From an uncultured Planctomycetota bacterium (GTDB lineage: Bacteria > Planctomycetota > Planctomycetia > Isosphaerales > Isosphaeraceae): a DNA stretch of 64,000 nucleotides. The notes below the pieces were generated by a model. It saw only the letters and a list, made by a program, of their open reading frames with translations, had not been told where the DNA came from and made no database searches. Location of the stretch: NCBI GenBank assembly GCA_963823665.1, contig CAWGMQ010000010.1, positions 1,696,001-1,760,000 of the forward strand, written 5' to 3'. Position numbers and translations under genes: made by a program. Positions 16,328 to 59,002 of the stretch are shown here, piece after piece (within the stretch, counting starts at the first letter, position 1; every line of letters starts with the position of its first letter).

Positions 16328-16544
16328 GGTAGCCATGTTAGCCCGAGGCGCCCCGCCAGACCCTGAAACGGTCGTCGCGGTGCGAGGAATCGATCGATCG
16401 CGCCGGATGATCGACGGGTTCGGTGAGTCGAAGCGGAACATCGCACGTGCTTCAAGTAAAGTGCCCGGATGACGCGAGACATTTCGCCACTGGACACGAG
16501 ACTGGCAGCGCACCTCCTGTGCGAGCCCATGAGAGGATACCAGG

Positions 16545-17513: not shown

Positions 17514-17752
17514 CAAGCATCTCCGTCAGCGACGAGGTTCAGAGGCTGTCGTGAGTGAAGGCTCGCGGCGCTATGCCGCGTACTCCTTCCCTGGAGATGC
17601 CACCCGAGTTCACCGAGCGGGCCAGACCATTGGCAGTCGAACGAAAGTCGGTTTTTTCTCGACAGTCAAATCGGCCGGCGGTGGGCTCGCACTTGAACCG
17701 CGAGCGGCGCTCCGAAATGTCGCGGCCGGAAGAATCGCGACAAGCGGTTCCT

Positions 17753-18341: not shown

Positions 18342-18436
18342 GGTGTCGCTTTCGGGGGGGCGGGAAGGGATCGTTCGCGTGGGTGCAGGCGAGTTGACGC
18401 ACTTTCGCAGAGCGAAAGGCGACTATTCGGCCCGCT

Positions 18437-19504
18437 CTAGCCGGGTACCTGTGCGTTCTCGCGGCGTGCGTTGCCGGTTCCGGCGATCGAGTTTCGCATT
18501 TCGGTGTCGGCTTGAACGTTGCGAAGATTGTAATAGTCGACGATGCCGAGATGTCCCTTCCGGAAGGCCTCGGCAATGGCCATGGGGATTTCGGCTTCGG
18601 CTTCGACGACCTTGGCGCGGTTTTCCTGGACGGCGGCTTGCATTTCCTGTTCTCTCGCCACGGCGAAAGCACGCCGCTCCTCGGCCTTGGCGCGGGCGAC
18701 GCGGGTGTCGGCTTCGGCCTGGAGGGCTTGAAGGTTGGCGCCGATGTTATCGCCGACGTCGATATCGGCGATGTCGATCGAGAGGATCTCGTACGCGGTT
18801 CCGGCGTCGAGGCCTTTTTCGAGCACACGCTTGGAAATCGACTCGGGCCGCTCGAGCACCTGGAGGTGCGTTTCGGCCGACCCGATCGCGTTCACGATGC
18901 CTTCGCCCACGCGGGCGATGATCGTCTCATCGGTGGCGCCGCCGACTAAGCGGTCAAGGTTGGTCCGCACGGTCACCTTGGCTTTGACCTTCAACTGAAT
19001 GCCGTTCTTGGCAACGCCGTCGATTGTCTGGCGGCCGGATGCGGGATCGGGGCAGGGGATGACCTTGGGGTTCACGCTCGTCTGCACGGCCTCGAGGACG
19101 TTGCGGCCGGCCAGGTCGATGGCGGCGGCTCGCTTGTAGGAGAGCGGGATATCCGCGCGGTTGGCGGCGATCAGCGCGCGGACGACGTTGGGCACGTTGC
19201 CTCCGGCCAGGTAGTGGGCCTCGAGTGCCCGGGTCGTCATCCCGTCCTTCTCGGACAGACCGGCCTGGTAGGCCATGATCTTGGAGCGGACCATGATGTT
19301 GGGATTGACCTTGCGGAACGACATGCCGACCAGCTCCCAGATCGTCACGTTGGCCTGGGTCATCTTGGCCTGGATCCACAGCTTGAAATACTTGGCGAGG
19401 AAGATGCTGACGATCAAGGCGAAGCCGCCAATGGCGATGATCAGCAGCCAGATATAGGTTTGCCACGGGTTCGTGGGCAGTTGCGCGAAGAGCACGGTGG
19501 TCAT
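18437..19504 (-). CDS. floA: Flotillin-like protein FloA (YqfA/UPF0365)
   Basis: [85 protein letters not shown] and [14 protein letters not shown] 19504 with AAAGGA SD. Confidence 0.95.
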
Positions 19505-19526
19505 GGTGTTTCCTTTGAAGTTGTGA

Positions 19527-21729
19527 TCAACTACCGATTTTCTTGACGACGACCCGCGGCCCCTGCACGTCGACGACTTCAATCAAGGTGTCGGGCTCGA
19601 CGAAGCGGTCGCCTGCGGTGACGTCCAGGAGCAAGCTGCCGAAGCGTGCCTTGCCGGTGGGTCGTAGAGCAGTGGTCGTGCGCCCGGTTTCACCGATCAA
19701 GAAAGCGAAGGAATCGAAGCCGTCGGCCGAATGTCTGCTCTCTGTGTCTTCGACTTCGACCGCTGTCCAGGGCTCGGGCTTCAAGATCAGGCGGTTGAAC
19801 AGTGGCAGCGACGGGAAGTACCGTGCCAGCCCGACCGCAGCGCACCCGACGGCGATCAGCACGCCGGTCAATTGCAGGAGCGTGTGGCCGAACTCCTGGT
19901 ATTCGTAATCTTCTCTGGGCCAGATGAACGTGTGGCTGGCCAGGACGATGCTGCAGAGCATGAGCAGGATTCCGCTCATTCCGAAGACGCCGAAGCCCGG
20001 AAACACGAAGATCTCGAGTGCGATGCAGACCAGGCCGATCAGGAAGAGAATGATCTCTAGCTGGTCGGCCGTTCCGCTCAAGTAATGGCTGCCGAAGAAG
20101 AGCAGAAACGCGACGGCCGAGATGATCGCCGGCAGGCCGATACCGGGCAATTTCAGCTCGACCACGAGCATCACCGCGCCGATGAAAAGCAGCATCCAGC
20201 TCACGTACGGATTGGTGAGCACCGTCACCAGCCAGTCGACCCACCCTGCCCCTTCGACCCGCATGGTGCGCGGGACGGCGTAGAGGTCCTTGAGCTCGTC
20301 GCCGCCGGAGACCACGTGCCCCAGACCGAACGAGGCGGCATCATCGGCGCCCAGAGTGAGAACGGATCCGGGGGCTTTACGGGTTTCGAGGATCCGGAAT
20401 CGATCTCGCGCGGCCAGGGCCTCGGCGCGGAGGATCAACCGGCTCGCGCCGGTCTGGGCGTCGCTGGCCTCGACGATTTCGGCTTCCGGATCGATCATGG
20501 CAATCGGCGACGGCTTGCGGATGCCCTTTGGCCTGGGCCCACAGAGCGGCCTTCTTGGCCAGCCCGGCGCGGGTGGTCGCGCTCAGGTCGTGCAGCATGC
20601 CGTTCCGCCCGCTCACGGTCTGGCGGATATCGCCCATGGTCGCGCCCTTCTTGAGGACGATGTCGCGGCAGGCCAGCGGCAGAAGCGCGGCCACACCCAG
20701 GGCCCGTTCATTGATGTAGGCGACGGTCTTCATGTCCTTGATCTCGGCGAGGATGTCGCCCATCCGGTCACCGGCTGCCTCGGTTCCCCCCGGGCTGTCG
20801 ATTTCGAGGATGAACAGGTTCTTTTTCTGCTGCCGGGCGTCCTCGAGCTTTCGCGACAGGAACGACACCGAGACGCTGTCGAGCAGTCCTTCGAGCTTGA
20901 TCCATTCAGGGCGGACGCTCTGGCCCAGTGTCGGGTCGTCGACCGACGACCGCCCCCCCAGTTGGTACATGTTCGCCAGCTCGGCGGGGCTCTCGGCGGT
21001 GCGCTTGCAGAACCCTTCCGCCCGCGCGCGCTCTGCGGTCAGGATGCCGCGGGCACCGGCGTCCCAGGCGGCTTTGTCTTCGGTGACGTTGTGGGTCTTC
21101 AAGAATTCTTGCATGTTTTCCGCAAGAACGTAGTGCACGGCGCGATCGGCAGTACGCACCACATGGAGGTCCGCGTCGCGGTCGAGCATGCCCAGGAGCA
21201 GGTCGGGCTCGCGCGTCTTGCGAATCGCCAGAAACCGAATCGGTTCCCGGTGGGCGGGGTCGAACGCACGGTCCTCGGGTGTGATCGGGCCCAGCGAGGC
21301 CGATGCCCCCATCACGATCTCGGTGCAGGCGACCGCGGGCAGCACGACGAAACCCTTGAGCGGCTTTGGCACGTAGGCCACCGTGAGCTTCGCGCCGGCC
21401 AGGTCGCGTGAGATCAAGCTCGCCAGGTCGTATGACGACCCGAACTCGCTGCTCCCAGGCGCCGTGTCGCCGGGGAGGAACTCGAACACAAGAACCGGTC
21501 GCGCCGCCTTGCCCGACGCCGCGGCCCGATCGACAAGCTGCCGCGAGGCCGCTCGAACCCTGGTGAGCGTATCGTTCGTGATCGGCTCCACGATCTGAAA
21601 GAACTGGCCGGGGGCGTCGTCGGCGCTTGCCGCTTCCTGGGCACGTGCGACCAGTGAAGCCGGCGCCGCAAGCACGGTCACGCAGAGCCACACTGCGACG
21701 TGGCGCGGCACAAGAACTGGGCGGAACAT
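19527..21729 (-). CDS. nfeD: Long-form NfeD family membrane protein (two ClpP/crotonase-like domains, TM region, OB-fold); one apparent frameshift at ~20505
   Basis: [32 protein letters not shown] and [21 protein letters not shown]. Immediately upstream of floA. ORFs 20377-21843 and 19527-20498 join at AVA-IAMIDP. Confidence 0.88.
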
Positions 21730-21970
21730 GGCAGCCGGACTCCCTTCGAGAGTCGGACGCGCCTCTTTGGCCTCGTTTTCCGGCACAACGATACAAGCGT
21801 TGCAATCAGGGCTGATTCGCGTGAAGTCCTTAATAGGAGTCAATCACACTCGTTTGCCGTTCACAAGAGAGCGCGAACTGAATCCATCAAGTCGCTCATG
21901 ATCCTGATTATAGACGGGCCGCCGGAAGGGGTCAAACATGGCGCACGGGCTGGATCAGTACCAGCGAAAT

Positions 21971-22945
21971 TCATTGGCGATCGATCGGCTCCCGACCGGG
22001 AACGGTGCGCTGTGCCGCTTTGGGATCCCCCGGCCGGCGAGCACGCTTGGCGCTAGCGCCCGTCGGATCATCGCGCAGGGGATTGATCTCGGTTGTCCAC
22101 CCGCTAACCTTGCTCATCTTCACCCCGATGAAGTACTTCTCGCTGATGCCCTCCTTGTTGTTGGCACTGAACTTGGACAACCAGAAGTCTTGCCGCTTCA
22201 CCCGGTCGGGCGAAATGAGCGTGATCTGTGCAGGCAGCAGGAACTTGCGGTCGAGCTTGACCCACGCCGTGCTGAAGACGTCTTGATCTTCCTTGAGTCG
22301 CGGGGTCACCACGACGAGGGAGTACTTCTCGTCCTGACCTCGCAACACCATGTGGTATCTCTGTTTGGCATCTCCGGCACGCATCCGGAACAGGAACGGC
22401 AGCGGCCCCTCATCGAGCACCTTTTTGCGCATGGTGTTGTCGAGCGTCCAGATCACGAGGTTCTTCACGTCGGATCGGTAGTCCCATACTTCCTTCCCGG
22501 TGCACAGAATCGTCTCGAACGGGTCCGAGAGAGGCTTCCCGTTCTTGTCCTTCTGCACAACCATCACGCGCTTGTTCTTCACTTTCGGATCGGCCTGCGC
22601 CGACATCTTGACCTTACGGTAGTCGACGTACGCCAGATCGGGGTTCTTGAACGCGGCATGTCCCGTGAAATGGACCTCATCGCCCCACTCTGCGTCGCGG
22701 TCGATCCGGTAAATATCGACCTCGAGTGTCTCGAGTTTCCTGCTCTGCAATTCCCACTGGCCGAGCAATGCATCCATCGCCTCGGGCGGAAACGCCTGCG
22801 CCTGCTGGACTTGCCCGGGCGCCGCCTGAGCCGCTCTCGCCTGCTTGGCCGGAGCCTGCCCGCGATCCTGGGCTCGAGCCGCTTGGTAATTTATAGCCAG
22901 CACGGCGACCGACACGACAGCGAAGAGCATTTGACGACGCGGCAT
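21971..22945 (-). CDS. Planctomycete TIGR03009-like / LolA-like periplasmic protein
   Basis: ATG 22945 with GGAGGG SD; signal peptide; LLGQWELQS, ETILCTGKEVWDY, EGPLPFLF.M.A.DAKQRY and LDRKFLLPAQI. Confidence 0.75.
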   Translation of the reverse strand: MPRRQMLFAVVSVAVLAINYQAARAQDRGQAPAKQARAAQAAPGQVQQAQAFPPEAMDALLGQWELQSRKLETLEVDIYRIDRDAEWGDEVHFTGHAAFKNPDLAYVDYRKVKMSAQADPKVKNKRVMVVQKDKNGKPLSDPFETILCTGKEVWDYRSDVKNLVIWTLDNTMRKKVLDEGPLPFLFRMRAGDAKQRYHMVLRGQDEKYSLVVVTPRLKEDQDVFSTAWVKLDRKFLLPAQITLISPDRVKRQDFWLSKFSANNKEGISEKYFIGVKMSKVSGWTTEINPLRDDPTGASAKRARRPGDPKAAQRTVPGREPIDRQ

Positions 22946-23358
22946 GGGCAATCGCCCTCCATGCACCGGCCCCGGGCGCACCGGCAAACGTATCGACGAA
23001 CTGATTCGACCAACCACCGCGGATGTTCCATCAACCCGCAGAGAATAGAGACCGGGGAACCTACCACAACTGCCAAAGAACCACCAGTGCAGCCGGCGGG
23101 CCGAGCCCGGTCCTCCGATCGCCAATGCGTCTCCTCGTCCTCCGCCCGCCGTCCTGCGTTTCACGCCCTCCATCGCCCCGAGTTCGTTTTGTATATTCGA
23201 CGCGCGTCCTTGTCCCATAACGATTAAGGGAACGAATCCCAGGAATTCCTCGCGCCCTTGTGAGCGAGGTACCGCCGCGGCATGAGCATCCCTCCCGCTC
23301 TTGTTGGGAGCTGCCGCCGCAGGCGTCGGACGGGGGTCGCGCGCAGGTAGGCCGCAGC

Positions 23359-23391
23359 CAACTGACAACCGACAACTGACAACTGACAACC
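23359..23391. repeat. Heptamer tandem repeat (CAACTGA)x4.7
   Basis: CAACTGA CAACCGA CAACTGA CAACTGA CAACC, read directly. Confidence 0.8.
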
Positions 23392-23643
23392 AGCCCAACG
23401 GCAACGCCTTGGTTTTCGATGCGCCGCCGACCGTTTCCGATGCCAAGCCTGGTGGCTCGCCGAGACACCTCGGAGGGGGTCCAAAACATAGTGAACAAAC
23501 TAAGAGATTCAGGGTGGCGGTTTCGACCTGACTAGCGCCACGAGGTGTTTTTGATCGCCAGGCCGCATCGGGATCATACCCTATCATGTTATCTCCATTT
23601 GATTTATGGAGCAACTGCGCCCCTGTCTGACGACCACATGTAA

Positions 23644-23669
23644 GTGGCGGATTGTGGCGCATTGTGGCG
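23644..23669. promoter_or_regulatory. Three GTGGCG direct repeats with 10-bp period (possible protein-binding array)
   Basis: GTGGCG-GATT-GTGGCG-CATT-GTGGCG. Confidence 0.35.
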
Positions 23670-23864
23670 CGTTTACGAGGGGTCTCCAGCATTTGTACAT
23701 TAGTGTAAATCGCCCGCTTTCAGAAGCTGCCAGTGGCCGGCAGCCGTCCGCTATTGAATACTGCTCGGTGATGCTTCCCCGGGCTGGCGTGTAAGGCCGC
23801 AACAGTACAGCCGACGGCAACGCCCTGGGGCCTGCCTTCGCACGCTTCAAATAAGTAGAAGTGG

Positions 23865-23914
23865 ATGAGACAAAATGAGACGAAATGGGACGATTTAGCC
23901 CAAAAAAGTCTCAC
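23865..23914. promoter_or_regulatory. Three ATGRGAC direct repeats with 10-bp period plus one inverted copy
   Basis: ATGAGAC at 23865 and 23875, ATGGGAC at 23885, GTCTCAC at 23908. Confidence 0.35.
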
Positions 23915-24691
23915 ATTGCTCGCTGTGTTGAACCCCCTCCGATGGCTATCCGGAACGCTTTGAAGCCGTACGGAAAGACTGAGAGCCAAAGAGGATAGCC
24001 CCACAAGTCCCGCTTCATGATCCCTCGCCCCAACGGCGGAAAACTCACCCTCACCGCGGTCCAAACCCGTCCCACTGCCGGCAAAGCTCAAAATTCGGTG
24101 GCATTTCGTCGCGCACCGATCCCCCTTTTGGAGCACAGTCCGGCCCCGTATTTCCCACAACATGGCCCTGGCCAGGCCGAGCTGAATTCTTCGAGCACGC
24201 GCCCGAGCAAACGAAGCAGTCATTCCCGGTCCCAGAGAGATGTGTGGTGCCTCGCGCCGACTCCAGTGTCGGCGATCGAGATCGCGCTAAGTATATTATG
24301 CGACGGGTTTCCCGGATTTGGCCATTTCGTCGACCAGAAAACCCGGAATTTTTTTCGCGTCGCAACGGATGCAACGATCAACGCGATTGCAACCCCCGAA
24401 TTGAGAGTGATCTGGTTAAGAACTCTGCAAGAACGCCCGACGCGATTCCCGCATCGAGGTTGTCCGTTCGGTCGATGCGCGTCCTCGTCCTCAATGCAGG
24501 TCATCTGATCCCCGACAGCCAGCCATTCGGCTTGAGTGACGCGCGCGAGGTCGACAGACGCAGAAGAGCTTCCGAACAGTGTCAGAACGCAAGGTTACGC
24601 CGCGCATGTTTACGAACGGCGCGCTCGCCACCGTCCTTTTGGAGAAAATCGCATTCGATTCTGAACGATGCACCCCGATTACCTCATCACA

Positions 24692-27600
24692 TCATTGCTG
24701 CAGAAGCTTCCGACGTGATTCGAGGCGGGTCATCGCTTCATCCGCGCCACTGACCGGGCAATACGTCTCAATGGCAAGCCGAATGTCCTTCTCCATTTCA
24801 TCGACGCCTTCGGCACCGGAGAGTCCTAGAGCGACCTCGTAAGCCGCGAGGGCATCGCTTGTCCTGCCGCTAACTAGCAACGCAATCGCGAGATTGGCGT
24901 GAGGTGTCCAATCCTCTGGATTGAGCGAGATTGCCTGTTGCTCGTCCTCGATCGCTTCATTCTTGCGACCGGCGAGGAAACGCAACCAGCCCCGGCTGCA
25001 CAGGGCCGCGGCGCGCTCCTTCGCGTTTGTACCCTGCATCTCGATCACGGTTGTGTAATCGCCTATCGCCTTGGCCGGCTCCCCCCGTCTAGTGTGAATC
25101 GCGCCGCGGTGGTTAAGTGCTTGAGAACCTAAGTTCATCGGGAATCTCCGTCATTCCAATAATTGCTGTGTAGTCGGCCATGGCGTCGTCCAGCCTCTGA
25201 AGCTGAGCGCTGGCCGCCCCTCTGAAATAAAGTGCCTGCGATTTCGGCTGCCCGGAAATCTCGGTGGTCTCGATCACCGTTGTGAAGTCGGTTATCGCGT
25301 TTTCGAGCTGGCCGAGTTTGGAGTAGATCAAACCACGGCGGCCAAGGTTTTGAGCTCTTCCCTCAGGGGAAGCAGCACTCAACCCGAGCAGCAACGTGAA
25401 GTCGGCGATTGCCTTCTGAAGTTCGCCGACTTGTTCATAGATCGACCCTCGCATAGAGAGGGCGTCGGCTTTCAGTTCCGCGAGGTCCGCGGGCATTTGA
25501 ATCACGGCTGACATGTCGGCGATCGCCTTGGCTGATTCGTTCTTATCACGATGTGCCAAGCCACGGTAGAAGCAAGCGTTGGCTAGCACATCGGACGAAA
25601 CCCCCGGCAGTTCGATCACGACGGTACAGTCCGCGATTGCAGAGTCGTGCTCCGCTTGTCGACTGTGGCTGATGCAGCGCAAGAGCAGAGCCCTCGCTCT
25701 GGCATCGGCGCGAGCGTCAGGCATTCCGACGACAGCCGAATAGTCCGCGATGGCGCTCCCGAAGTCGCGTTGCTCGGCGAACGCGACGCCGCGATTCATC
25801 AGCGCTTCGGCGCGCTCCTCAACGGGGACGTCCTTCATGTCGATGACATCCGTGAAGTCGCACATCGCACGGTGCAATTCGCCGCGTTTCTCGTGCGCCA
25901 GACCTCGGAAGATCTGAGCCCTCGCGCGCTGGTCCACCGGAATGTTAGATGCGTGGATGGCGGCGGTAAGGTCGTCGATCGCCTTCTCGAACTGACCCGC
26001 TTCCCAATACGATAATCCACGATACACAACGGCGAACGATTTCTGGTCGGCTGGAGCGTTCGACATCTCAAGCACGGCGCCGTAATCGGTGATTGCCTCC
26101 TTGGGTTGCTTCAGGAGATCGAGTTGTAGGCCTCGGCCAATCAGAGCGGAGGCTCTCTCCAGGGGCGACGGGTCAAAATCCTGAATAACCGCCGCAAAGT
26201 CGGCGATCGCTTGTTGCGACTCGCCCATTTCGCCGTATGCGAAGCCGCGACAGAGGTGCGCCTTGCATTTCTGATCGGCCGTTGCGCCTGGCAGGTCGAT
26301 CACTGCCGTGAAATCGACTGTCGCCAGTTTGGGTTGAGCGGTCTGTTTAAGCGCCGCCGCACGGCCAAGCAAAGCTTTGATCAGCCAATCCTCGCGCCGC
26401 GCAGGCTCGTCTGCCGTCCGGATGACAACATTGTGGAACGGACTAGCGTCGGCTATGCCGCCCTGCTGGCCAAATGCGAAGGATGGTACGACTAGAAGCC
26501 GAGTTTGCCGCTCGGTCAATGTTCCGAGCACTTGGATGCAGGAGGCGTAGTCCGCAATCGCTTTTTCCGGTTCGCTGATCTGGAGGTGCATTGTGCCACG
26601 TTCGGACCGCGCCAGGGCCTTCCTGTCGGCGGGCGCGTCTGGCATCTCGATTACAGCTGCGTAGTCCGCGAACGCTTTCTCGGGCCTTCCGAGTTGACGA
26701 AATGCCGCGCCGCGATTGACCAACGCTCCAGCCTTCTGTGCGGGAGAGGCCGCGATTTGCATCACGGAGTCATAATCGGCAATGGCCTTTTCTGGTTCGC
26801 CTTTGTGACCGTGTCTCAATCCGCGGTTGAAGTGTGCGCCGGATTTCTGTTCAGGCGATGCTTCCTCCGATTGAAGGATCTGTTCGCAAAGGCTCATCGC
26901 GGCATCGAAACGCAGGTCGGCGAGCCCAGCGTCCGCGGTTCTCATCGCCCATTTGGTTAAAACATTCGCCCAGCTTATGAACACCGCGATACGAGTCGAC
27001 GGGTCTCCGTCGTAAAGCACCCGGCATACCCGATCCCAGAGGACAAAGTCCGAGTCTCCGGTGAGGGTCTCGAGGTCGGTGGTCGAGAGAAGATGTGCAA
27101 GAAACGGCGCCGCTCCGGGACTCCAGGTGGACCGGAGTAGTTTGGTTAACGCACCGGAGAACTCGGAGGGCGATCGAGGTTGCTTGAAAGCCGTCGCAAG
27201 AAGATTGTCGTCGAACGAATCGCCGGCTGATCGCAGGACCTCTCGTGTCAGCTTTTCATATTCCTCGGCTAAGTACTCATCCGTGTAGCCGCGCGTGAAG
27301 ATCGTTTCTTTCAATGCCAACTGCGGGTGGTATGACAGTTTAACACTAACGTCGCCCAGACCTTGCTCAACCTGCTTGAGCCGCTCTCGCTTCCCCTCGA
27401 TCTCCCCGGCGGGGACGAGACTCGCCACGATCATGCATGGCTTTGATCCCGGCGCAGGGCCGGTTTCTTCATAGACCCCGACCTCAATAAGGAACTTACG
27501 AGTTCCGGCCACGTTCTGGTCATTCATCGCTGTGAGGACGACGAGCTGGTCGGAGAGCGGCCCGATGCAGAGACCCCCGATCTCCGTGATGCCGGTGCGG

Positions 27601-28148
27601 CTGTCGATCAGAACATAGTCGTAAGAAGCAGATCGCGGATAGTCCGGCCCGTAGTAGTCGGGAACTTCGATCGGAAACCGGAGGCTTTGAAGCCACGCTC
27701 TTAGCACACTTCCCGTCTTTACCAGCGCTTGCTGATCGCAGTCCCTGATGGCGAGTTCAGAAAGTCTGTCGTAGTACGCTCGCTCCTCGTCCGCCGGAAT
27801 GATGTCGAGACGACCGAACTCGCCGAAGAGCGATGCAATCCGATCTGGATCGTTCTTCGCGATAGGGACAATGTATTCAGCGGCAGGGCGATATGATGCA
27901 GGGACTAGCGGTAGAGAGACCGTCCGGGCCCAGCTCACCAAGTCGAGAATGTCGCACGGAGCGTAACGTGGAATCTCCTTGTCTCGGTGAAGAAATCCGC
28001 TAAGGCCTGGCGCCTCCAGGTCCATATCCAGGATAAGGACGTGCCGGCCTTTAGCCGCAAGGGCGAACGCCGAGTTCACGAGTGCCATGCTTCGGCCGAC
28101 CCCGCCCTTGAAGCTGTAGAACGCAAGGATGGTAGGCGTGTCTTTCAT
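24692..28148 (-). CDS. KGGVGR-motif ParA/MinD-like ATPase fused to a long TPR array (~1150 aa); one apparent frameshift at ~25127
   Basis: FYSFKGGVGRSMALVN, LILDMDLEAPGL and YDYVLIDSRTGITEIGG, followed by more than 15 repeats of about 38 aa (AL..RG......G....AIADY..VI.M.DA). ORF 24692-25138 continues the TPRs. Confidence 0.88.
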
Positions 28149-28962
28149 CCCGCGATTGACTGCCGAACGTCGATGGCCTTGAGCCTGGCAATGCCACGCA
28201 ATTTCGTTCCCACAGGCGTGCCAGTCGATTCCACCGGCGGACGAGAATTCCCGGACGGGATCGACCGCAGCACGTCGCTCAAGTTCTTTATCTCGCCGAG
28301 GTACGCATCCCAGGGCACGGCCGGAAACTCGTTCTTCGTGAACGCGTCGAACGTGAGCCTGATCCGCTCAGGATCTTGGGCCAGAGAGTAACGCAAGTGA
28401 GCCTGCCAGCGCAACTGCCGATTCCTGGCGGCACAGAGCATGAAATCCGCCATTCGTTTCAGAGACGCCCTGTCGCAGCCCTGTTGGTACATGCTGTTAA
28501 AGCGTTCCTTCAGGCAGACGGCCCACTCGCCCAGGAGTGCCTCAAGTGCCGCGTCAGAAGCGGTTGTGGCGCGAATTGACTCGTTACCCCGTTCGAGACC
28601 ACGCCAAAGCAACGGTTCGTCACGAAACACTTCGGGCCAGGCAGCTCGACCTGTTGTGTCGAGGAACGTTCGAGCCGCGAAAACCACCATCGGATATCGT
28701 CCAGACTGTGCGCCGAATCGCACACGCACGATCGCGGAAAAGGAAGCGGCTCTCGGAATTTTGTCCATCGCCCTGCCTCGGCGAGCTCTGTTGCCTGTCC
28801 CTCATCGTACCAGGAGAGCTTTGCCGCATCTTCTACAGGACCGAGCACGCAGTGCATTCCGTCCGATTGGCGCCGCGCGATCGGCAATGCGCGACCGCAC
28901 TCCACGACCGGCGATCCATTAAAGCCGACAATTTCCAAATCATGATCTCGCGCCAGCATCAT
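28145..28962 (-). CDS. Uncharacterised protein (~270 aa), middle gene of the operon; probable frameshift at ~28735
   Basis: ATG 28962 overlaps the upstream TGA (ATGA) and reads MMLARDHDLEIVGFNGSP...WTKFREPLPF, then continues in ORF 28145-28768. Its TGA overlaps the ATPase ATG (ATGA). Confidence 0.6.
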
Positions 28963-29789
28963 CGGAGACATTGCTCCTGTGCCCATTGCTCGATTCGTTC
29001 GCAGAACATCGGCGTCCCCGCCGGTTCGAGCGCGCCAGGTCCGGAAAAGAATCGTTCGAGGGGGGTCGGCGGATCGCCTGGCGGGGACACTCCGTCCTCG
29101 TCCAGTCGCCGCCGTAGGGACTCCATCGTGGGCTCATCGGCACACCAAGCCGCGCGATCTTCAATCGGTTGACCCTCGTGAAATCGTACCTCGAATGTCC
29201 AGGCCCGCCAATCGCTGTTCAGTTCGTATAGCCCTTCGGGATCGAACGGTTGCGGTTTGCCCGACCAGTAGTCGACTGAGGATAGGAAGTGCGCTGCGAG
29301 CACTCGGGCGAACACATCGCGCCAGCGATCCAAAGGGATTTCAGACGATCGGAAATACTCTGTTCGTTCCGCGTCGCCATCCGTGGGCGAAAGGCGCAGT
29401 TTCACAACACGCTTCGGATGGACGAGCCCACCGGTGTCAAAGGGCGTCGCGGAACCGGTATGACCGGCCTCGCACGGTGGCAGGAAAGCGAGTGCAACGG
29501 AGCCAAATTTAGGGTGTGCTCGTCCCGCATAGAAGTACACGCAGCTTAAAAGCCCGAGTAATTGTTCCGCGCGCCTCGTGCCGCGCGAACTGCTCCCATC
29601 ATCATCGGACGCGAGGATTTCGTGTGGCGCGTTCTGCACCATTGTCTAGAACGGGCTCTTACTTCCGGTCACATGAACCAGGGCGATGCGCTTCGACACA
29701 TCGTGGCAACTGGGCAACCTCCGTTTGTAGCCGCCACTGTCAAACGGTGGGCTTGAAGCGCGTTCGTCGAGATCCGTGAACACAGGCAT
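28959..29789 (-). CDS. Putative DarT-like (H-Y-E type) ADP-ribosyltransferase-fold protein with an in-frame TAG at codon 48
   Basis: ATG 29789 reads MPVFTDLDER...IALVHVTGSKSPF*TMVQNAPHEILAS...CVYFYAGRAHP...ATPFDTGG...WTFEVRFH. HxT, YFY and terminal E fall in ART-like order. The TAG occupies 29646-29648, in frame with ORF 28959-29642. Confidence 0.55.
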
Positions 29790-30070
29790 CGGCAATGATG
29801 ATCCGTTTGGTTAGTCGAGTGAAGGCTGGATACGATTCAGGAAAGTGGTAACGTTCTATACATAAATGATATCGGCCGTCACAGAGAAACGATAGAACGG
29901 AACATGGCGACGCAGAGGTGTTGCCGACCGGCCACCAAGGCACGCCATATTCGGCCCGGCCGTCACGTCGCGCACCGACTTGCGGGGCGCTGCTGACTTC
30001 GAGAGAATAAGAACCGTGGCAGCGGCCCAGCATATCGGCGGAGGCCATCCACAAAACCGGCGGAGTGGCT

Positions 30071-30742
30071 ATGAAAGCGGATCCTGATCACGCTCCCAAG
30101 CGATTCGTACTGCGGTTGAGCGTCCGCATGTTCATGACGCTCATCCTCCTTCTCGGCGCCTGGCTCGGGTGGGTCGCCCGTCAAGCCGATCGCCAGCGGC
30201 ACGCCGTCGCGGCGATCGAGAGGGCCGGAGGCCGCGTCTATTACGATTGGCAATACGCCGGCGGCACGACTAGCGGCGCCGAGCTTCCCCTTGACGGGCC
30301 CTGGGTGCCGCGCTCGCTCGTGAACCTGCTCGGCCCTGACTATTTCGGGACGGTGATATCCGTGCAATTTGAGGGATGCGGTACGGACGAGGTCCTGGCT
30401 AAAGTCGCGCAGCTCAACGGGCTCGAACAACTGACACTCTGCATGTCCCAGGTCAGCGACGATGGAATGCGCCGGATCGCGGGCCTGCCCCGCTTGCAAC
30501 GGCTGAATCTCCAGGACACCGCCGTGGGCGACGCCGGGCTGAAGCACTTGGAATCGCTGCCGCGATTGCGCATGCTGACGCTGCCAAACAATGTCACCGA
30601 CGCGGGTCTGGTTCGCCTTGCGGGCATGCGAGGCCTGCGCACGGTCTTCATCCATCGCGAGCAGAGCTGCCAGTTCCTGACGGAAGAGAGCCTGCAAAGG
30701 CTCCGCTCCAGGCGGCCTGACCTGGCGATCGACCCACCTTGA
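30071..30742 (+). CDS. Membrane-anchored leucine-rich-repeat protein (planctomycete type)
   Basis: RLSVRMFMTLILLLGAWLGW..RQ..AVAAIERAGGRVYYDW; LRRs L.L..TAVGDAGLKHL..LP.LR.L. Confidence 0.85.
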   Translation: MKADPDHAPKRFVLRLSVRMFMTLILLLGAWLGWVARQADRQRHAVAAIERAGGRVYYDWQYAGGTTSGAELPLDGPWVPRSLVNLLGPDYFGTVISVQFEGCGTDEVLAKVAQLNGLEQLTLCMSQVSDDGMRRIAGLPRLQRLNLQDTAVGDAGLKHLESLPRLRMLTLPNNVTDAGLVRLAGMRGLRTVFIHREQSCQFLTEESLQRLRSRRPDLAIDPP

Positions 30743-30788
30743 GGCCCACACGAGGGCCAGACCCGAGAGGACCAGCGGAGTCTTACCC

Positions 30789-30992
30789 ATGCCCCAGGAC
30801 AAGGAAAAACCAGACGATCGGCTCGGTGAGCTCGCGAAGTCTTCTGATCAAGAGCCCGGATACTCGAATCCACCGTCGCCGAAGACCGCAGAGGAGCGGT
30901 TCGAGGAACAAGTCCAAAGACTGCTCCGCTCCGTTGATCCGTCGCATGTTGACGATACCTGGGAGGGATGCGGCGGAAACCCCGCCCGTTGA
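30789..30992 (+). CDS. Small acidic peptide (67 aa) of unknown function
   Basis: ATG with GGAG 8 nt upstream. Fills the gap between the LRR gene and the convergent halogenase. Ends DDTWEGCGGNPAR. Confidence 0.4.
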   Translation: MPQDKEKPDDRLGELAKSSDQEPGYSNPPSPKTAEERFEEQVQRLLRSVDPSHVDDTWEGCGGNPAR

Positions 30993-31097
30993 ACCTCCGC
31001 GCCCGAGCGACCGATGTCTCGGGCCAGCCGAAGAAGCGCCTTGAGCTCCGGAGTGCTCGGACGACACACGCAAGCTGCTCGATCAACTGGCAACCAT

Positions 31098-32660
31098 TCA
31101 CACCAGCGGGTGCTTGAGTCGACCTTCATGCACCGCCGCGATCGCCTCCTCGATTGTGAGTGCGCCTTTTGCCGTCTCGTCGAGACTGGTCCATAGCTCG
31201 TCGCATCTCCGGCGCTCCTCCTCACCGATCGCGGGCGATACACGTGAAGGAACCTGCATACCTAGAAGCAAGGTAAGGTAACCGGCGAACCCGAAGATAC
31301 TCCAGGGGGGGAGAGTCACTTGACCTCGCTCGGCAGGGTCCGGGATCATCGATGCAAGCGCTGGACCGAGTTGCTCATATGTATCGACGAAACCCTGAAG
31401 CGAGCCCAGCGGGATTGACGAGTGACACCACCTCCAGAACTCCGACTCACGCGCTCGATTGAATTTGTAGTGGATCGCGATGAAGTCACGAATGTCATCC
31501 CATCGCTGCGCTGCTTGCGTGTTGTACGCGGCGATCCGTCCCGCGTCGGGACAGAGCATACTCAGGTCGAGGTCTCGAATCAGCCACCTGACTTGACTTG
31601 CGATCATGTGCAGCCCCGTCGACTCAAGCGGCTCCACGAACCCGGAAGAATTGCCGATGGCGATCACATTCTTGAGCCAGCAAGTCTCATAGCGGCCCGA
31701 AGGGAAACGGATCGTCCTGACATTGGACGGCGACCCCTGTGTTTCACGCAGATATTCTGCACGCGCCTCATCCTCACTGATATGGTTCGAGCTGAACACA
31801 TAAGCTTGATTAATCTTCTCGACGTGTTCGATTCTCCACATCCAGCCGCATTCCATCGTCGTGCACGTCGTGCAGGGACGGACCGGTTCAGGGCGCGCCC
31901 ATTCGCCGACGATAGCCCTGTCGCACGCAAGTACATCGGCGTAGGAAATGAACTTCACACCAAGTTGCTTGAGAAACAGCGACGAAAACCCGGTGCAATC
32001 GACAAACAAGTCGGCGGTAAAACTCTCTCCAGTCTCGGTCTGGATCGAGGCGACGGCGCCGGAACTGTCGGTGAGAATTCCCCGCAGCTCGCCATCGTGA
32101 AACCGGATTCCTCTCTCTCTCGCCACGGTGCCCAGGAAGCCCGTGAAACGCTGATTCTCGATGTGGTATCCATAAGGAAGGAAATGATGCTCACCTGTCA
32201 CCGGATCACGAACGACCGGGCTCTTGTTCCTGCGGATGAGCGCGCTCGAAAGCGCGAGGTCTCGGCCGAGTGCGCCGTAGTAGACTCCGAGTCGTTGAGA
32301 CAGGCGATCATCCCGGCGCAGGATCTGCTTGTCGAACGCAAAATTAAAAGAGTTCGTGGCTTCGCTTCCCCACCGTTCGAACCGCAAGCCAACCTTCCAG
32401 GTAGGCCAAACGGCTCGATGAAAACGGCCCGGCTCGAGCTCGAGATTCGTGTGCAGGAAGAACGGAATCGCGCCGGTCGTCGATTCTCCCACGCCAATGA
32501 TCGGCTTTCGTGTCGACGCGAGAATCCGGACATCAAGCTCTGGAAACCGCGTCTTGAGTGCCAACGCCGCAAGCAAGCCCGCGCTACCTTCGCCCACGAC
32601 AACGACCGATGAAATGGGTTTTGGCATCGTCGGAATGGTTTTCCCATCCGGTGCACGCAT
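31098..32660 (-). CDS. Flavin-dependent tryptophan halogenase family protein
   Basis: GEGSAG (GxGxxG), GVGESTT, catalytic-Lys region PTWKVGLRF, DLFVDCTGF, WMWRI (WxWxI) and GFVEPLESTG. Alternative start at 32627. Confidence 0.92.
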   Translation of the reverse strand: MRAPDGKTIPTMPKPISSVVVVGEGSAGLLAALALKTRFPELDVRILASTRKPIIGVGESTTGAIPFFLHTNLELEPGRFHRAVWPTWKVGLRFERWGSEATNSFNFAFDKQILRRDDRLSQRLGVYYGALGRDLALSSALIRRNKSPVVRDPVTGEHHFLPYGYHIENQRFTGFLGTVARERGIRFHDGELRGILTDSSGAVASIQTETGESFTADLFVDCTGFSSLFLKQLGVKFISYADVLACDRAIVGEWARPEPVRPCTTCTTMECGWMWRIEHVEKINQAYVFSSNHISEDEARAEYLRETQGSPSNVRTIRFPSGRYETCWLKNVIAIGNSSGFVEPLESTGLHMIASQVRWLIRDLDLSMLCPDAGRIAAYNTQAAQRWDDIRDFIAIHYKFNRARESEFWRWCHSSIPLGSLQGFVDTYEQLGPALASMIPDPAERGQVTLPPWSIFGFAGYLTLLLGMQVPSRVSPAIGEEERRRCDELWTSLDETAKGALTIEEAIAAVHEGRLKHPLV

Positions 32661-32937
32661 GCCAAGGCGTTAGATAATCGCATGCGCGGCGAATTCCTGG
32701 AGTTTCAAGCCCCGTCGGAGGAGACTAGCATTTCGATCGGCCCGTTGAAAGAGCCTCTCCTCGCATGGACGGGGCGAGGGAAACCAATACGACACCGAAT
32801 TCTTGCATTATCCGTGTTTCATCAGGTTTCATCCGTGGCTAAAATCTCCGGCGCTCTTCCCTTTCACTTCTCAATTTCCAGCCCGAACGGGTCTTGTCCG
32901 CGGCCTGATCCAATCGCCTCCGCGCTGCCGTTTTACC

Positions 32938-33001
32938 GTGAACCCATGAACCCAGACACCCATTCTCTGGTGAACCCATGAACCCGAACACCCATTCTCT
33001 G
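32938..33001. repeat. Two 32-bp direct repeats near the 3' end of the Y1 transposase element
   Basis: GTGAACCCATGAACCCAGACACCCATTCTCTG / GTGAACCCATGAACCCGAACACCCATTCTCTG. Confidence 0.8.
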
Positions 33002-33308
33002 GAGGGGGTTGCGGGGTTAACCAGGCACACGTGACTTGCACTGGTTCGCGTCCCGCGATTGCTAGGTGCCACACGGCCGACGCCGCGCAGAGCTGGTGCT
33101 GCGCCATGCACTGTCAGCAACGGGATGCGCTCGGTTCGGCGCCGGCGCTTGCACGCGTCGGTTGCTGCGAACCACTCGATACGGACGGCGCTGCTTCGTC
33201 GCTTGCCGCGCCAGCGAAAGAGAACGCCGCTGGCCGGCCTCTAATCCAATCGAATTCCACGTCTGCCGCTACGACTGGGGCTCGCGAGAGAGAGCGCGAG
33301 CCGCTTAC

Positions 33309-34527
33309 TCAAAGAAACGCGATTTGCGCGGCCGCCTTCCCCTGAAACCAGCGCCGTGAACAACGCGGTGCGGCGCGCACAAGCGAACTCGCTCGACCTG
33401 CCGCTTGCTTGAACATGCGACCAAAGTCGCGCACCGTGCGCACCCAATTCGATCGATCCACTCCCAGCCTGTCCAGGATGGGAGCCAGGTCTTCAGGGAT
33501 TGCCCCACGCTTGTCGCGCCGCAGTTCCCGGCCCGTCCAATCGAGCAGCATCACGTACTTTCTGGTCTCGATCGGCAGAAACCCTTGATCCGACGCCCGC
33601 GCAGGGAGCGGCCGTTTTGACGCCGCCTGGCGCGGCACGGTCGAGACCGTGGCAGAAGAGCCAGCACGTGCCCGACGCCCCGCGGTACCGACAAGGTCGC
33701 TCGCGATCGGTTCGCGCGGCGGAACCGTTTGTGACGGTGTAGCCGGCGAGCTCTCGGCCTGCCCGGTTCTGGGAACGACGTCGGTCTCCCGCAGCGTCAG
33801 TTCGCACAGCCAAGCATCCGGGCGATCAAAAGATTCGGCCGGGCTTTCTTCGCGCGATGAACGCAAACCACCCGGAGGTCCAGCAAGGCTCAGAATGCGC
33901 TCACATCCCGACGTGAAGTGCGATTCCTCCGGCGTACTGGCGATTCCGGCCCGAATCGGGTTGAGATCGACATAGACGCTGCACGCCAAAAGCGCTGCCT
34001 CATCGAGTAGCGGCTGCGACTTGAAGCGACCGGCCCAGAATCTGCCTGCCGAGCCGTCCTCGCGATTGGCCGCTCGGGCGACCCATTCGCACAAGCACCT
34101 CATGAACCACGACAGACTCGACAGGCGGCCGCGCAGGGCCGCCATCCTGCCAGCGTCGGCCATGAGCATCGCCAGGTCGTGGTCGTCAGGCTCCGCCGGC
34201 TCACCCGTAACATCGTCACGTTGCGGAAAGAGCTTGCGCCAGCGCAGTGCGACTTCAGCGTCGCACCATTGCTCGACTCTGTCGGGTCGATTGCGGACCA
34301 CGAGATGCAGGTGGTTGCTCATAATGGCATAACCGCACACCTCAACGCCGAACAGTCCGGCGAGAGCGCGTAGCCGATCGAGAATCCATGCCTTTCGGTG
34401 AGAGTAATCACGACCGGAGTAGGAGTCGGTGCCGCACACGAAAGCTCTTCGGACGCACCGAGCAATGCAGTGATAGTCACCGACGAACTCCTCGTGAACG
34501 ATGTCGCGACGTGCAGCAGGCAGGCAC
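33309..34527 (-). mobile_element. HUH/Y1 tyrosine transposase (RAYT-like, YHC..RCVRRAF family); probable 1-bp indel near the start
   Basis: ARRDIV...GDYHCIARCVRRAFVCG, YAIMSNHLHLVV (HUH), LSWFMR, GRFWAGRFKSQPLLDE and YVDLNPIRAG (catalytic Tyr). GTG 34527 with GGAG SD. Confidence 0.88.
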
Positions 34528-34561
34528 GTAAAGCTCCATCACCAGGCAGGTGCAGCACGTT

Positions 34562-35055
34562 AGCTTGTCGCCGAAAGCCGTTGCGGTCGTGGTGCCGGCC
34601 CTGCATGCGTAGTTCCACTGCGCCTCGGTGGGTAGCCGGAATTCCCAGCCCTCGGGAAGCTCGTTGGATTTGTGCGCCAGCAGGGTGAGCTTGTGGCAGA
34701 ACGCCTCGGCCTCGGCGAAGTTGACGTTGCCGACGGGGTAGTCGTCGCCTTCGGGCAGCTCGGCCGTCAGCGGGCCGGGGAGCGTTCCGACGACGCGCTT
34801 CCAGTCGCCCTGGGTGACCTCATACTTCCCGGTATAGAATCCCTGGGTGAGCGTGACCTCGACCTGGTCTTCGCTGGGACGCCGCTCTCGCTCGCCGGGA
34901 GGGCTTCCCATCGTGAACTTGCCGGGCGGCCACCAGCAGAGCTCGATGCCGGCGATGGTGCGCTCTTCGCGGGGCTTCTTGCCTGCAAAGTCGTCCGGCG
35001 CGGCGGCGAGGCCGGCGGCGAAAAGGAGCATGATGGTCAATGCGAACAGCCGCAT
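34562..35055 (-). pseudogene. FGE-sulfatase/SUMF1 family gene, 3'-truncated at the transposase element
   Basis: Signal peptide, PPGKFTMGSP, GKYEVTQ, YPVGNVNF and FRLPTEAQWNYACRAGTTT. Similarity stops after AFGDKL, and the expected N.WGL.DM.GN..EW half was not found. Confidence 0.8.
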
Positions 35056-35190
35056 GGGAGTCCCCTCAGACCAGATTCGTCGCTCTTGAGGCCGAAGGCA
35101 AGTGCGGAACGGCGGTTCTTGCGGGGGATCTCGCGCAAACGGCCCATCTTTTGTGCGTGGCTGGATTCCGGTCTTCCGGCGCCTCTTAGT

Positions 35191-35219
35191 TTGCGTCCGC
35201 CTCGTCGTTTACTTATAAT
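35191..35219 (+). promoter_or_regulatory. Sigma70-type promoter upstream of the TA-like pair
   Basis: TTGCGT-17 bp-TATAAT. Confidence 0.55.
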
Positions 35220-35305
35220 ATCAGCAGGATTCCGTGATCGGCCCTCCGGCCGCTGGCGATGGTCATGGGAAGCTGTCCGAGCGGGATTGAGTCAGGAGAC
35301 AACAC

Positions 35306-35632
35306 ATGCCGGATACGACTAGCTCGCTGCAAAAGGAAACGGACAGTTTGCTTGAGAAAATGTCCATCGAGAAGCGCGAGTACTTGCTCCGGCGCCTGGC
35401 GACCGACAAACTTGCGGGCGTGCAGTCGTCGGGTCCGATTCCTGTCCTGAGTCCCGATGACGGAACAGTTGTTGGATACCTGCGAAAAGTGGTGCCCCCC
35501 TCGGATCAGGAAATAGCGCTGGTGCACGAACGTGCGAGACGGATGGATCTGTCGGCGGGACGGAGCACGCGCGAGCTTCTCGATCGAATGAGAGCGGGCG
35601 ACGTTGATGGGGTTGAGAAGTTCATCCAGTGA
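35306..35632 (+). CDS. Putative antitoxin (108 aa)
   Basis: AGGAG SD; small protein with ...GTVVGYL...GRSTRELLDRM; its stop overlaps the likely GTG of a RelE-like gene. Confidence 0.6.
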   Translation: MPDTTSSLQKETDSLLEKMSIEKREYLLRRLATDKLAGVQSSGPIPVLSPDDGTVVGYLRKVVPPSDQEIALVHERARRMDLSAGRSTRELLDRMRAGDVDGVEKFIQ

Positions 35633-35915
35633 TTAACGAGTCAGTATCCGCGTCGAGTTCGATCGCGATGGCAACGCGGAGAACGACCTGGCACGATTGT
35701 GGATTTCTGCGGAGCAGGGTGATCGGCAGCGGATCACGGATGCTGCTTTCGATGTAGAAGCGATCCTCGAGCAAAATCCTCACGCAGGCGTTTCAATTAC
35801 AAACGGCGTCAGTCCGCCTGTTCGTCACCTGGACTGGGATATCCTGCGGGTTTTCTACCGAATCGACGATTCACGCGAAACTGTCGTCATCATCAGATTG
35901 TCGCTATCCGGGTGA
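35629..35915 (+). CDS. RelE/ParE-like toxin (planctomycete type); start uncertain, probable indel at ~35645
   Basis: RVEFDRDGNAENDLARLWI...DRQRITDAA..VE.IL..NP..G...VRHLDWDILRVFYRIDDSRETVVIIRL matches the RelE-fold pattern. Confidence 0.6.
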
Positions 35916-36132
35916 ATCGTCGTTGGTTGCACGTGCGGCAAGGCGACGCCAGAGGCGGTGGAGCTGCTCTCGGAGATCCTTGATCGGCGCGTCACGAGCC
36001 GGTTGAGAGCGCGCCGCGCAAGGTGAACGGGTCAAGTCGCGTGTCCGGATTCGTACCGGGTTCGATACGGAATTGGCTAAGCACGTCATCACCACGTCGG
36101 ATCGATCAATGCCGCCCGCCTTGACGGGTGCG

Positions 36133-52701: not shown

Positions 52702-52720
52702 CCGACCGCGAAAAAAAGCG

Positions 52721-58997: not shown

Positions 58998-59002
58998 CAT
59001 CC

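What the first reader, a model, noticed from the sequence alone, without database searches (positions are those of the whole stretch)
24692..29789. Candidate undescribed defence/conflict operon: DarT-like ADP-ribosyltransferase + unknown protein + KGGVGR ParA-like ATPase-TPR sensor
Seen: three co-oriented genes joined by ATGA stop/start overlaps at 28959-28962 and 28145-28148, in DNA that looks less GC-rich than its flanks, at the start of an accessory region. Gene 1 has LVHVT ... VYFYAGR ... PFDTGG ... FEVRF, the same motif order as H-Y-E ADP-ribosyltransferases such as DarT (HxT, PFYF, FTDG, QAE). Gene 3 is a deviant Walker-A (KGGVGR) ParA/MinD-like ATPase with more than 15 TPRs. Established: DarT normally pairs with a DarG macrodomain/NADAR antitoxin, and NTPase-TPR fusions act as pattern-recognition sensors in anti-phage systems. 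No DarG-like gene is recognisable here. Inference: a sensor (TPR), switch (ATPase), adaptor or inhibitor (gene 2) and NAD+-consuming effector (gene 1) system that I cannot match to a named system.
Basis: partly seen in the sequence, partly recalled or inferred. Interest (0 to 1): 0.85.

Follow-up and report, generated by a model that had tools for sequence, protein, structure and literature searches.

The report
Broken ART-toxin, antitoxin, ParA-TPR cassette
Three overlapping genes pair a protein with a predicted ADP-ribosyltransferase fold and a likely antitoxin with a ParA-like ATPase-TPR sensor, a candidate anti-phage design so far catalogued only by computation, and the copy in this genome is broken in all three genes.

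Summary
Three co-oriented minus-strand genes (28959-29789, 28145-28962, 24692-28148) are joined by two ATGA overlaps and lie in low-GC DNA that has no match in a same-genus genome.

- **Gene 2** has no known family or fold. It follows gene 1 in 23 of 23 testable genome loci.
- **Gene 3** is a KGGVGR ParA-like ATPase (NF047398) with about 15 TPR-like units. It follows the pair in 12 of 20 loci. A KaiC-like ATPase replaces it in 2 loci, and nothing follows in 6.

An October 2026 preprint (Li, Burroughs, Aravind) already describes "TA-ParA" systems with ART toxins and unrecognised antitoxins, so the kind is known, though untested.

In the window, gene 1 has an in-frame TAG, which an independent short contig also shows. 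Genes 2 and 3 each carry a frameshift that I could not verify.

One new lead: a C-terminal KLRGIA-type peptide in gene 2 occurs only where ParA is present.

The parts
28959..29789 (-). Gene 1: member of a family with no Pfam model and a predicted ADP-ribosyltransferase fold (276 codons). It is the putative toxin or effector. An in-frame TAG at 29646-29648 (codon 48) separates strand beta1 (LVHVT, His39) from the rest; the ORF after the stop is 28959-29642.
28145..28962 (-). Gene 2: partner protein of unknown family, the likely antitoxin or adaptor. The model shows an N-terminal beta domain, a helical bundle, a disordered linker and a short C-terminal helix. The frame changes between 28702 and 28717. 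The start overlaps the gene 1 stop (ATGA, 28959-28962).
   Evidence: establish the gene and its break. One search found 53 homologues, none with a Pfam hit or a name beyond 'hypothetical protein'. One search gave a model with pLDDT 87.4. One search (Foldseek) found no match at E<=0.001, and one search found no PDB sequence match. In one search gene 2 lies directly after gene 1 in 23 of 23 loci that have DNA there.
28187..28204 (-). KLRGIA peptide near the C-terminus of gene 2, behind a Ser/Pro-rich linker. It is a candidate docking peptide for the ParA domain (inferred).
   Evidence: In some searches a [KNSQ][LV]xx[IM][AT] motif lies 12-18 residues from the end in 11 of 12 ParA-linked loci (the L005 copy is truncated) and in the window. 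It occurs in 0 of 10 loci without ParA. In one search it forms the only helix (251-259) after the disordered stretch.
27159..28148 (-). Gene 3, N-terminal ParA/MinD-like ATPase domain (about residues 1-330). It carries the Walker A KGGVGRS (Arg in place of the second Lys) and DMDLEAPG. The start overlaps the gene 2 stop (ATGA, 28145-28148).
   Evidence: In one search NF047398 scores 132.7 bits (cut-off 90). In one search CbiA, ParA and AAA_31 pass their cut-offs. In one search PADLOC PDC-M28B scores 1.1e-28 on this domain only. In one search K14-G-G-V-G-R19 and D41, D43, E45-A-P-G48 are invariant in 14 orthologues. These are the markers that (preprint section 12) names for clade ConB2.
24692..27158 (-). 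Gene 3, helical linker followed by about 15 TPR-like units of 38 residues and a canonical TPR tail; the putative sensor. The frame changes inside 25113-25140, and the last 148 codons (24692-25138) are in another frame. The repeat register is lost over residues 530-646.
   Evidence: One search shows TPR_1 at 1.1e-45 in 8 stretches, with the tail piece at 1.1e-14. One search shows the repeat register. Searches show that the C-terminal end aligns with the end of the intact 898-aa G022 orthologue.
23095..24691 (.). Boundary of the region not shared with the same-genus genome. It contains a short multi-copy repeat at 24171-24470, just downstream of gene 3.
   Evidence: In one search the G001 match covers window 16528-23095. 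Window 24171-24470 matches many places in G001, and nothing matches 24.5-30.8 kb.

Best explanation
The locus is a three-gene cassette. A protein with a predicted ADP-ribosyltransferase (ART) fold is followed by a partner of unknown fold and by a KGGVGR ParA-like ATPase fused to TPR repeats. It likely works as a sensor-controlled toxin-antitoxin (abortive-infection type) system, and this genome's copy is probably inactive.

Shown:
- The gene order and the two ATGA overlaps.
- The ART fold of the gene 1 family in a confident model. Glu200 is invariant, Tyr85 near-invariant, and position 39 on strand beta1 is His or Arg.
- Strict adjacency of genes 1 and 2 in other genomes.
- ParA-TPR as the commonest third gene, though not the only one.
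- The ConB2-type Walker A (Lys replaced by Arg) and the PG motif.
- A TAG in gene 1 and a frame change in each of genes 2 and 3.

Inferred mechanism:
1. Gene 2 would bind gene 1 and hold it inactive.
2. The C-terminal KLRGIA-type peptide of gene 2 would dock on the ParA domain.
3. The TPR array would sense a product or consequence of an invader.
4. ATP-dependent switching or dimerisation of ParA would then rearrange the complex and free the ART.
5. The ART would ADP-ribosylate a target or consume NAD+ and so stop growth. A nucleic-acid target is the more likely guess, because the nearest folds are DarT and Tpt1.

In the window, the TAG cuts the His39 strand off from the rest of gene 1, so the toxin is most likely dead here. 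Toxin genes of such systems often decay in this way (recalled from general knowledge, no call).

For: **Conservation.** In 111 full-length representatives, E200 is kept in 111 of 111, Y85 in 108, D118 in 105 and R157 in 102. Position 39 is H in 81, R in 13 and T in 11. These residues sit on strands 37-42, 84-88 and 200-203 of the model.

**Linkage.** Gene 2 follows gene 1 in 23 of 23 loci. ParA-TPR follows in 12 of 20, a KaiC-like ATPase in 2 of 20, and nothing in 6 of 20. An intact trio is present in G022.

**Tail peptide.** It co-varies with ParA: 11 of 12 ParA-linked loci against 0 of 10 without.

**ParA markers.**, compared with preprint section 12.

**Design in print.** Preprint sections 24 and 26.

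**Accessory nature.** Gene 1 was found in 3 of 41 related genomes including G000, and not in same-genus G001. GC3 is low. Only one NF047398 ATPase in G000 scores above the cut-off.

**Conflict-type neighbours in some loci.** AIPR and DUF5131 in L006. SNF2 helicases, a Zeta-like protein and DUF6398 in L011 and L012. SNF2, Dam, two N6_N4 methylases and BamHI in L016.

**The TAG.** It is seen in a run contig.
Against: - There is no experiment on any member.
- No Foldseek match reaches E<=0.001.
- There is no sequence-level link to DarT or any Pfam ART.
- I could not superpose residues, so it is not shown that H39, Y85 and E200 line an NAD+ pocket.
- Gene 2 has no recognisable hydrolase or inhibitor fold, so 'antitoxin' rests on position alone.
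- Recognisable restriction, Abi or helicase genes lie within 8 kb in only 4 of 21 loci scanned (L006, L011, L012, L016). L011 and L012 are both Kuenenia. I scanned 139 of the 214 ORFs picked.
- Most neighbours are housekeeping genes. In Singulisphaera the trio sits directly after dnaA.
- The window's own neighbours are not defence genes.
- The two frameshifts may be assembly errors. The window holds at least one more frameshift, in a conserved kinase paralogue, and neither site is covered by run contigs.
- The run contig that shows the TAG may come from the sample the genome was assembled from.
Confidence: 0.6

Rival explanations
1. The pair is a housekeeping or regulatory ADP-ribosylation module, not immunity. 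An ART with a partner would reversibly modify a component of replication or translation, and ParA-TPR would act as a localisation or regulation factor.
For: The trio lies immediately downstream of dnaA in both Singulisphaera genomes. Gene 2 is fused to a ribosomal S15-like domain (L020, L025), to KH plus S1 (L024) or to a GerE HTH (L030) in loci that lack ParA. Most neighbours are metabolic genes.
Against: The distribution is patchy: 3 of 41 related genomes including G000, and no match in the same-genus G001. Composition is atypical. Genomic context varies from locus to locus. The third gene is swappable. The window's copy is broken without any sign of a second copy.
Confidence: 0.15
2. Gene 1 is a protein-targeting ART or ADP-riboxanase, or a plain NADase, rather than a nucleic-acid modifier. 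The system design is the same but the chemistry and target differ.
Against: The two best rows by Z, and four of the top eight, are DarTs. Tpt1 RNA 2'-phosphotransferases also appear. The partner gene is fused to RNA- or DNA-binding domains in some lineages. None of this is decisive.
Confidence: 0.2
3. The window's copy is functional. The two frameshifts would be assembly errors, and the TAG would be tolerated through read-through or restart at the ATG at 29642.
For: Other genes in the window also look frameshifted. Both indels lie at runs of two or three identical bases. An ATG follows the TAG by one codon.
Against: A product starting at 29642 lacks strand beta1 and position 39. The TAG is reproduced in a separate short contig. 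The repeat register of gene 3 is also lost over residues 530-646, which suggests further decay.
Confidence: 0.1

Closest known systems
TA-ParA ternary systems, ART-toxin subtype (Li, Burroughs & Aravind, bioRxiv 10.64898/2026.10.19.760177, Oct 2026; computational only)
   Same: The ParA belongs to the arginine-Walker-A clade with a PG motif and is fused to TPRs. An upstream gene pair consists of an ART-fold toxin and an antitoxin of no recognised family. The three-gene order is conserved. The proposed logic is that a sensor drives a ParA switch, which releases the toxin.
   Different: The main text names no organism, accession or ART family, and the supplements are closed, so I cannot tell whether this very family is in their set. 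Several findings here are not in the sections I read: the pair standing without ParA, replacement by a KaiC-like ATPase, the ParA-linked tail peptide, and the S15, KH-S1 and HTH fusions of gene 2.
DarT of the DarTG toxin-antitoxin systems (Pfam PF14487; PDB 7yk3, 7omv, 8baq)
   Different: No sequence relation is detectable. Gene 1 is about 70 residues longer. The partner is neither a macrodomain nor a NADAR. A third NTPase-sensor gene is attached. The target is unknown.
NCBIfam NF047398, KGGVGR-motif variant AAA ATPase (domain model), and PADLOC candidate PDC-M28B
   Same: The gene 3 N-terminal domain passes the NF047398 cut-off and matches PDC-M28B at 1.1e-28.
   Different: Both are models of the ATPase domain only. 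No PADLOC model matches gene 1 or gene 2. No paper in the library holds 'PDC-M28', and the only paper that holds 'KGGVGR' is unrelated.
STAND/NLR-like and other NTPase-TPR defence sensors (Avs-type; recalled, not from any call)
   Same: An NTPase switch is fused to a C-terminal repeat sensor that controls a lethal effector. The preprint makes the same comparison.
   Different: The NTPase is a SIMIBI-class ParA, not an AAA+ STAND. The effector is a separate gene product held by a separate partner.

Membership tests
DarT (PF14487) / DarTG | Sequence match to the DarT family profile | tested here: not met
   There is no Pfam hit at E<=1 for the window ORF, and none for 46 distant family members at E<=0.01. 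hhalign of the family alignment A1 against 13 planctomycete DarTs gives probability 0.2%.
DarT (PF14487) / DarTG | ART fold closest to the solved DarT structures | tested here: met
DarT (PF14487) / DarTG | Adjacent macrodomain (DarG) or NADAR antitoxin | tested here: not met
   Gene 2 has no Pfam, NCBIfam or PADLOC hit, no PDB sequence match and no Foldseek match at E<=0.001. The wider VIA-align search could not be run.
DarT (PF14487) / DarTG | ADP-ribosylation of thymidine or guanosine in ssDNA | not testable with these tools
   This needs biochemistry.
H-Y-E (ARTD-type) ADP-ribosyltransferases | His on beta1, Tyr on beta2 and a catalytic Glu on beta5 that line the NAD+ pocket | tested here: inconclusive
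   The order, the strand positions and the conservation all fit: position 39 is H in 81, R in 13 and T in 11 of 111; Y85 is kept in 108 of 111 and E200 in 111 of 111.
TA-ParA system, ART subtype (preprint 10.64898/2026.10.19.760177) | ParA of clade ConB2: Arg instead of the Walker A Lys, and a PG motif after sensor-1 | tested here: met
   KGGVGR and DxDxEAPG are invariant in 14 of 14 orthologues, including the window. The definition was read.
TA-ParA system, ART subtype (preprint 10.64898/2026.10.19.760177) | ParA fused to a C-terminal sensor, most commonly TPRs | tested here: met
   for the window. for 12 orthologous loci.
TA-ParA system, ART subtype (preprint 10.64898/2026.10.19.760177) | Conserved three-gene neighbourhood with an ART toxin and an antitoxin of unrecognised family | tested here: met
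   for the neighbourhood, for the ART fold, and for the unknown partner. Toxin and antitoxin activities are not testable here.
TA-ParA system, ART subtype (preprint 10.64898/2026.10.19.760177) | This protein family is listed among the authors' examples | not testable with these tools
   The main text holds no organism or family name for the ART subtype. bioRxiv supplements are closed.
NCBIfam NF047398 (KGGVGR-motif variant AAA ATPase) | Score above the curated cut-off | tested here: met
   132.7 bits against a cut-off of 90, over residues 5-220.
PADLOC candidate system PDC-M28 | All component models present | tested here: inconclusive
   Only PDC-M28B matches, and only on the ATPase domain (1.1e-28). 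No PADLOC model matches gene 1 or gene 2. I could not look up the make-up of PDC-M28 (one search found no paper).

The most novel reading that the evidence does not exclude
The gene 1-gene 2 pair would be the core of a widespread, uncatalogued ART toxin-antitoxin family (850 clusters at 50% identity). Its antitoxin would carry an exchangeable C-terminal 'plug': a ParA-docking peptide, a ribosomal S15-like domain, KH-S1, or an HTH. The same toxin would thus be wired to different triggers (ParA-TPR, KaiC-like ATPase, RNA or ribosome, DNA). The ART would modify RNA or DNA rather than protein.
Probability: 0.25. Interest if true: 0.7.

Novelty: new member of a known kind. Interest (0 to 1): 0.5.

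Why it matters
ParA-type ATPases as immune switches were proposed only in an October 2026 preprint, and nobody has tested one. This cassette offers a concrete test case. An intact orthologue exists in a cultured, harmless planctomycete (Singulisphaera acidiphila DSM 18658), the toxin model is confident, the predicted catalytic residues are clear, and there is a specific candidate peptide linking antitoxin to ParA.

The ART family is large, has no Pfam model, and is structurally nearest to the DNA-modifying DarT. It may therefore widen the known range of nucleic-acid ADP-ribosylation. The window's own copy adds little, because it looks like a decaying relic in horizontally acquired DNA.

Tried and rejected
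- **Complex prediction.** I sent gene 1, ParA residues 1-330 and gene 2 as the partner. The verdict was 'no answer'. The three runs scored 0.81, 0.79 and 0.83. With the partner replaced the score was 0.00 twice, and with ParA replaced by an unrelated protein it was 0.78. The tool says this may mean the score comes from the chain that was kept, and that the job is no evidence for or against binding.
- **VIA-align search for the gene 2 model.** It was never accepted because the machine was busy. I can only say that Foldseek found nothing clear for gene 2.
- **ESM Atlas.** No usable hit for gene 2. The request for gene 1 did not complete.
- **Fused forms of gene 1.** None were found among proteins of 484-2000 residues, which is weak evidence.
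- **PDB sequence searches.** Only a chance-level hit for gene 1 (E 0.19) and none for gene 2.
- **PD-(D/E)xK nuclease reading of gene 1.** I rejected it because the fold is ART.
- **Sequencing runs.** No RNA holder is listed. The laid contigs cover only parts of the stretch, and neither frameshift site.
- **Whole genome for a genome-wide frameshift count.** I did not ask for it, because the genome (16.46 Mb) exceeds the 16 Mb limit the tool states.
- **L032 (Akkermansiaceae).** The middle ORF I picked is unrelated to gene 2.
- **RNA families, promoters and terminators.** No Rfam match over 22000-36000. Promoter and terminator scans were at chance level.
- **Literature.** 'KGGVGR' gave one unrelated paper and 'PDC-M28' gave none.

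Full report
**What is in the window**

On the minus strand lie three genes with overlapping stop and start codons. ATGA was read at 28959-28962 and at 28145-28148.

- **Gene 1** starts at the ATG at 29789 and ends at 28959. Codon 48 (29646-29648) is TAG, where four full-length homologues I checked have Glu or Lys. The ORF finder therefore reports only 28959-29642 (227 aa).
- **Gene 2** (28145-28962) is split into two frames. tblastn with the intact orthologue places the break between 28702 and 28717.
- **Gene 3** (24692-28148) is a 1011-aa ORF plus a 148-aa ORF in another frame. The break is inside 25113-25140. The tail aligns with the C-terminus of the intact 898-aa orthologue.

GC is 0.578-0.598 over 24001-30000, against 0.62-0.665 in the conserved left part of the window. 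GC3 of the three genes is 0.63-0.68, against 0.72-0.83 in seven other long genes. Synteny with the same-genus genome G001 stops near 23095, and 24.5-30.8 kb has no counterpart there (G001 is 84% complete).

**Are the defects real?**

A 156-nt contig from a coded soil-metagenome run covers 29616-29771 with no difference, so the TAG is reproduced. That run may, however, be the sample the genome came from. Neither frameshift site is covered.

Both indels sit at short runs of two or three identical bases. The window holds at least one more frameshift in a well-conserved kinase paralogue, at 59566-59570, and several further split long ORFs. Assembly error therefore cannot be excluded for the two indels.

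The 38-residue repeat register of gene 3 is also lost over residues 530-646, which hints at further decay.

**Gene 1**

- No Pfam, NCBIfam or PADLOC model matches.
- The word-indexed search found 148 relatives, typically 276 aa and all 'hypothetical'.
- A profile search of 1.84 billion representatives found 850 clusters at E<=0.001 and 123 at E<=1e-30. None of 46 distant members has a Pfam hit.
- The AlphaFold model of a full-length member, built with 92 sequences, has pLDDT 96.
- Foldseek gives the same leaders with high probability but with E only 0.003-0.05.
- The likeness is structural only. hhalign against 13 planctomycete DarTs gives probability 0.2%.
- In 111 diverse full-length members, Glu200 is invariant and Tyr85 is kept in 108. 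Position 39 is His in 81, Arg in 13 and Thr in 11. The His/Arg alternation on strand beta1 is the classic difference between H-Y-E and R-S-E transferases (class motifs as in PMC11543638, passages read).
- I could not check the three-dimensional pocket.

**Gene 2**

- It has 53 relatives and no family.
- The model (pLDDT 87) shows a beta-rich N-terminal domain, a five-helix bundle, a disordered Ser/Pro-rich linker and one short terminal helix.
- Foldseek and PDB sequence searches found nothing clear. The wider structural search could not be run.

**Linkage**

Of 28 genome loci that encode a gene 1 relative, 23 have more than 300 nt after gene 1. All 23 have gene 2 there, at -3 to +42 nt.

Of 20 loci with at least 3 kb beyond gene 2:
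- 12 continue with a KGGVGR ParA-TPR gene;
- 2 (both Pyrinomonadaceae) continue with a ~1190-aa KaiC-like ATPase;
- 6 have no NTPase.

In ParA-less loci gene 2 carries other C-terminal domains: ribosomal S15-like (L020, L025), KH plus S1 (L024) and GerE HTH (L030).

A short motif of the type KLRGIA, 12-18 residues from the end, occurs in 11 of 12 ParA-linked copies and in the window, but in none of the 10 copies without ParA. I read it as a candidate ParA-docking peptide. This is an inference.

**Gene 3**

- NF047398 scores 132.7 bits (cut-off 90), and TPR_1 scores 1e-45.
- KGGVGR and DxDxEAPG are invariant in 14 orthologues.
- It is the only such ATPase above the cut-off in this 16.5-Mb genome.

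**What is known**

Li, Burroughs and Aravind (bioRxiv, 22 Oct 2026) define a ParA clade, ConB2, by exactly these Walker A and PG features (section 12).

They describe 'TA-ParA' ternary systems: a toxin-antitoxin pair plus a ParA fused most often to TPRs. [quoted passage not shown] In their model ParA is a switch that frees the toxin (sections 24 and 26).

The main text names no organism or ART family, and the supplements are closed. Whether this family is among their examples stays open.

PADLOC knows only the ATPase domain, as PDC-M28B.

**Context**

Restriction, Abi or helicase genes lie nearby in L006, L011, L012 and L016. Elsewhere the neighbours are housekeeping genes, and in both Singulisphaera genomes the trio follows dnaA. 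The window's neighbours are flotillin/NfeD, an unknown protein, an LRR protein and a tryptophan halogenase.

**Verdict**

But the kind is now in print, gene 1 is DarT-like in fold only, and this copy is probably dead.

The pieces I believe are new are leads rather than results: the stand-alone core pair, the exchangeable C-terminus of gene 2, the ParA-linked tail peptide and the KaiC-like replacement.

Noticed in passing
window 24171-24470: A stretch of about 250-300 bp just downstream of gene 3 matches at least eight places in the same-genus genome G001 at 74-90% identity. It is a short dispersed repeat of unknown kind.
   Followed up: no
window 32980-34564: A multi-copy element with dozens of matches across G001 contigs at 66-91% identity. 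It includes ORF 33309-34439 (376 aa), which has no Pfam hit at E<=1e-4. It is possibly an uncatalogued transposable element.
   Followed up: no
window 52123-64000: An ECF sigma factor gene (52123-52701) is followed by four Ser/Thr kinase paralogues that share an N-terminus, 83-100% identical to the query copy; at least the first also carries TPRs. The third (59163-63189) changes frame at 59566-59570, and the second (56018-58997) also looks split.
   Followed up: partly
window 4201-15739: Very long minus-strand ORFs (189, 209, 2035 and 1846 aa) overlap or abut in different frames, as if one or two giant genes were cut by frameshifts. This bears on the assembly quality of the whole window.
   Followed up: no
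L007 746-5964; L004 5781-11808: In Singulisphaera acidiphila DSM 18658 and in Singulisphaera sp. GP187 the intact trio lies directly downstream of dnaA, at the start of the chromosome record.
   Followed up: partly
L019 9969-13526; L021 9976-13572: In two Pyrinomonadaceae MAGs, a ~1190-aa protein with a KaiC/RecA-type ATPase domain follows the gene 1-gene 2 pair, in the position that ParA-TPR takes elsewhere.
   Followed up: partly
window 26210-26560 (gene 3 residues 530-646): The 38-residue repeat register of the TPR-like array is lost for about 115 residues. This may mark older, compensated damage or an inserted segment.
   Followed up: no
window 36133-36594: A SUKH-1 (SMI1/KNR4) family protein, a type often found as an immunity protein of polymorphic toxin systems. 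L015 also has one upstream of its trio.
   Followed up: no
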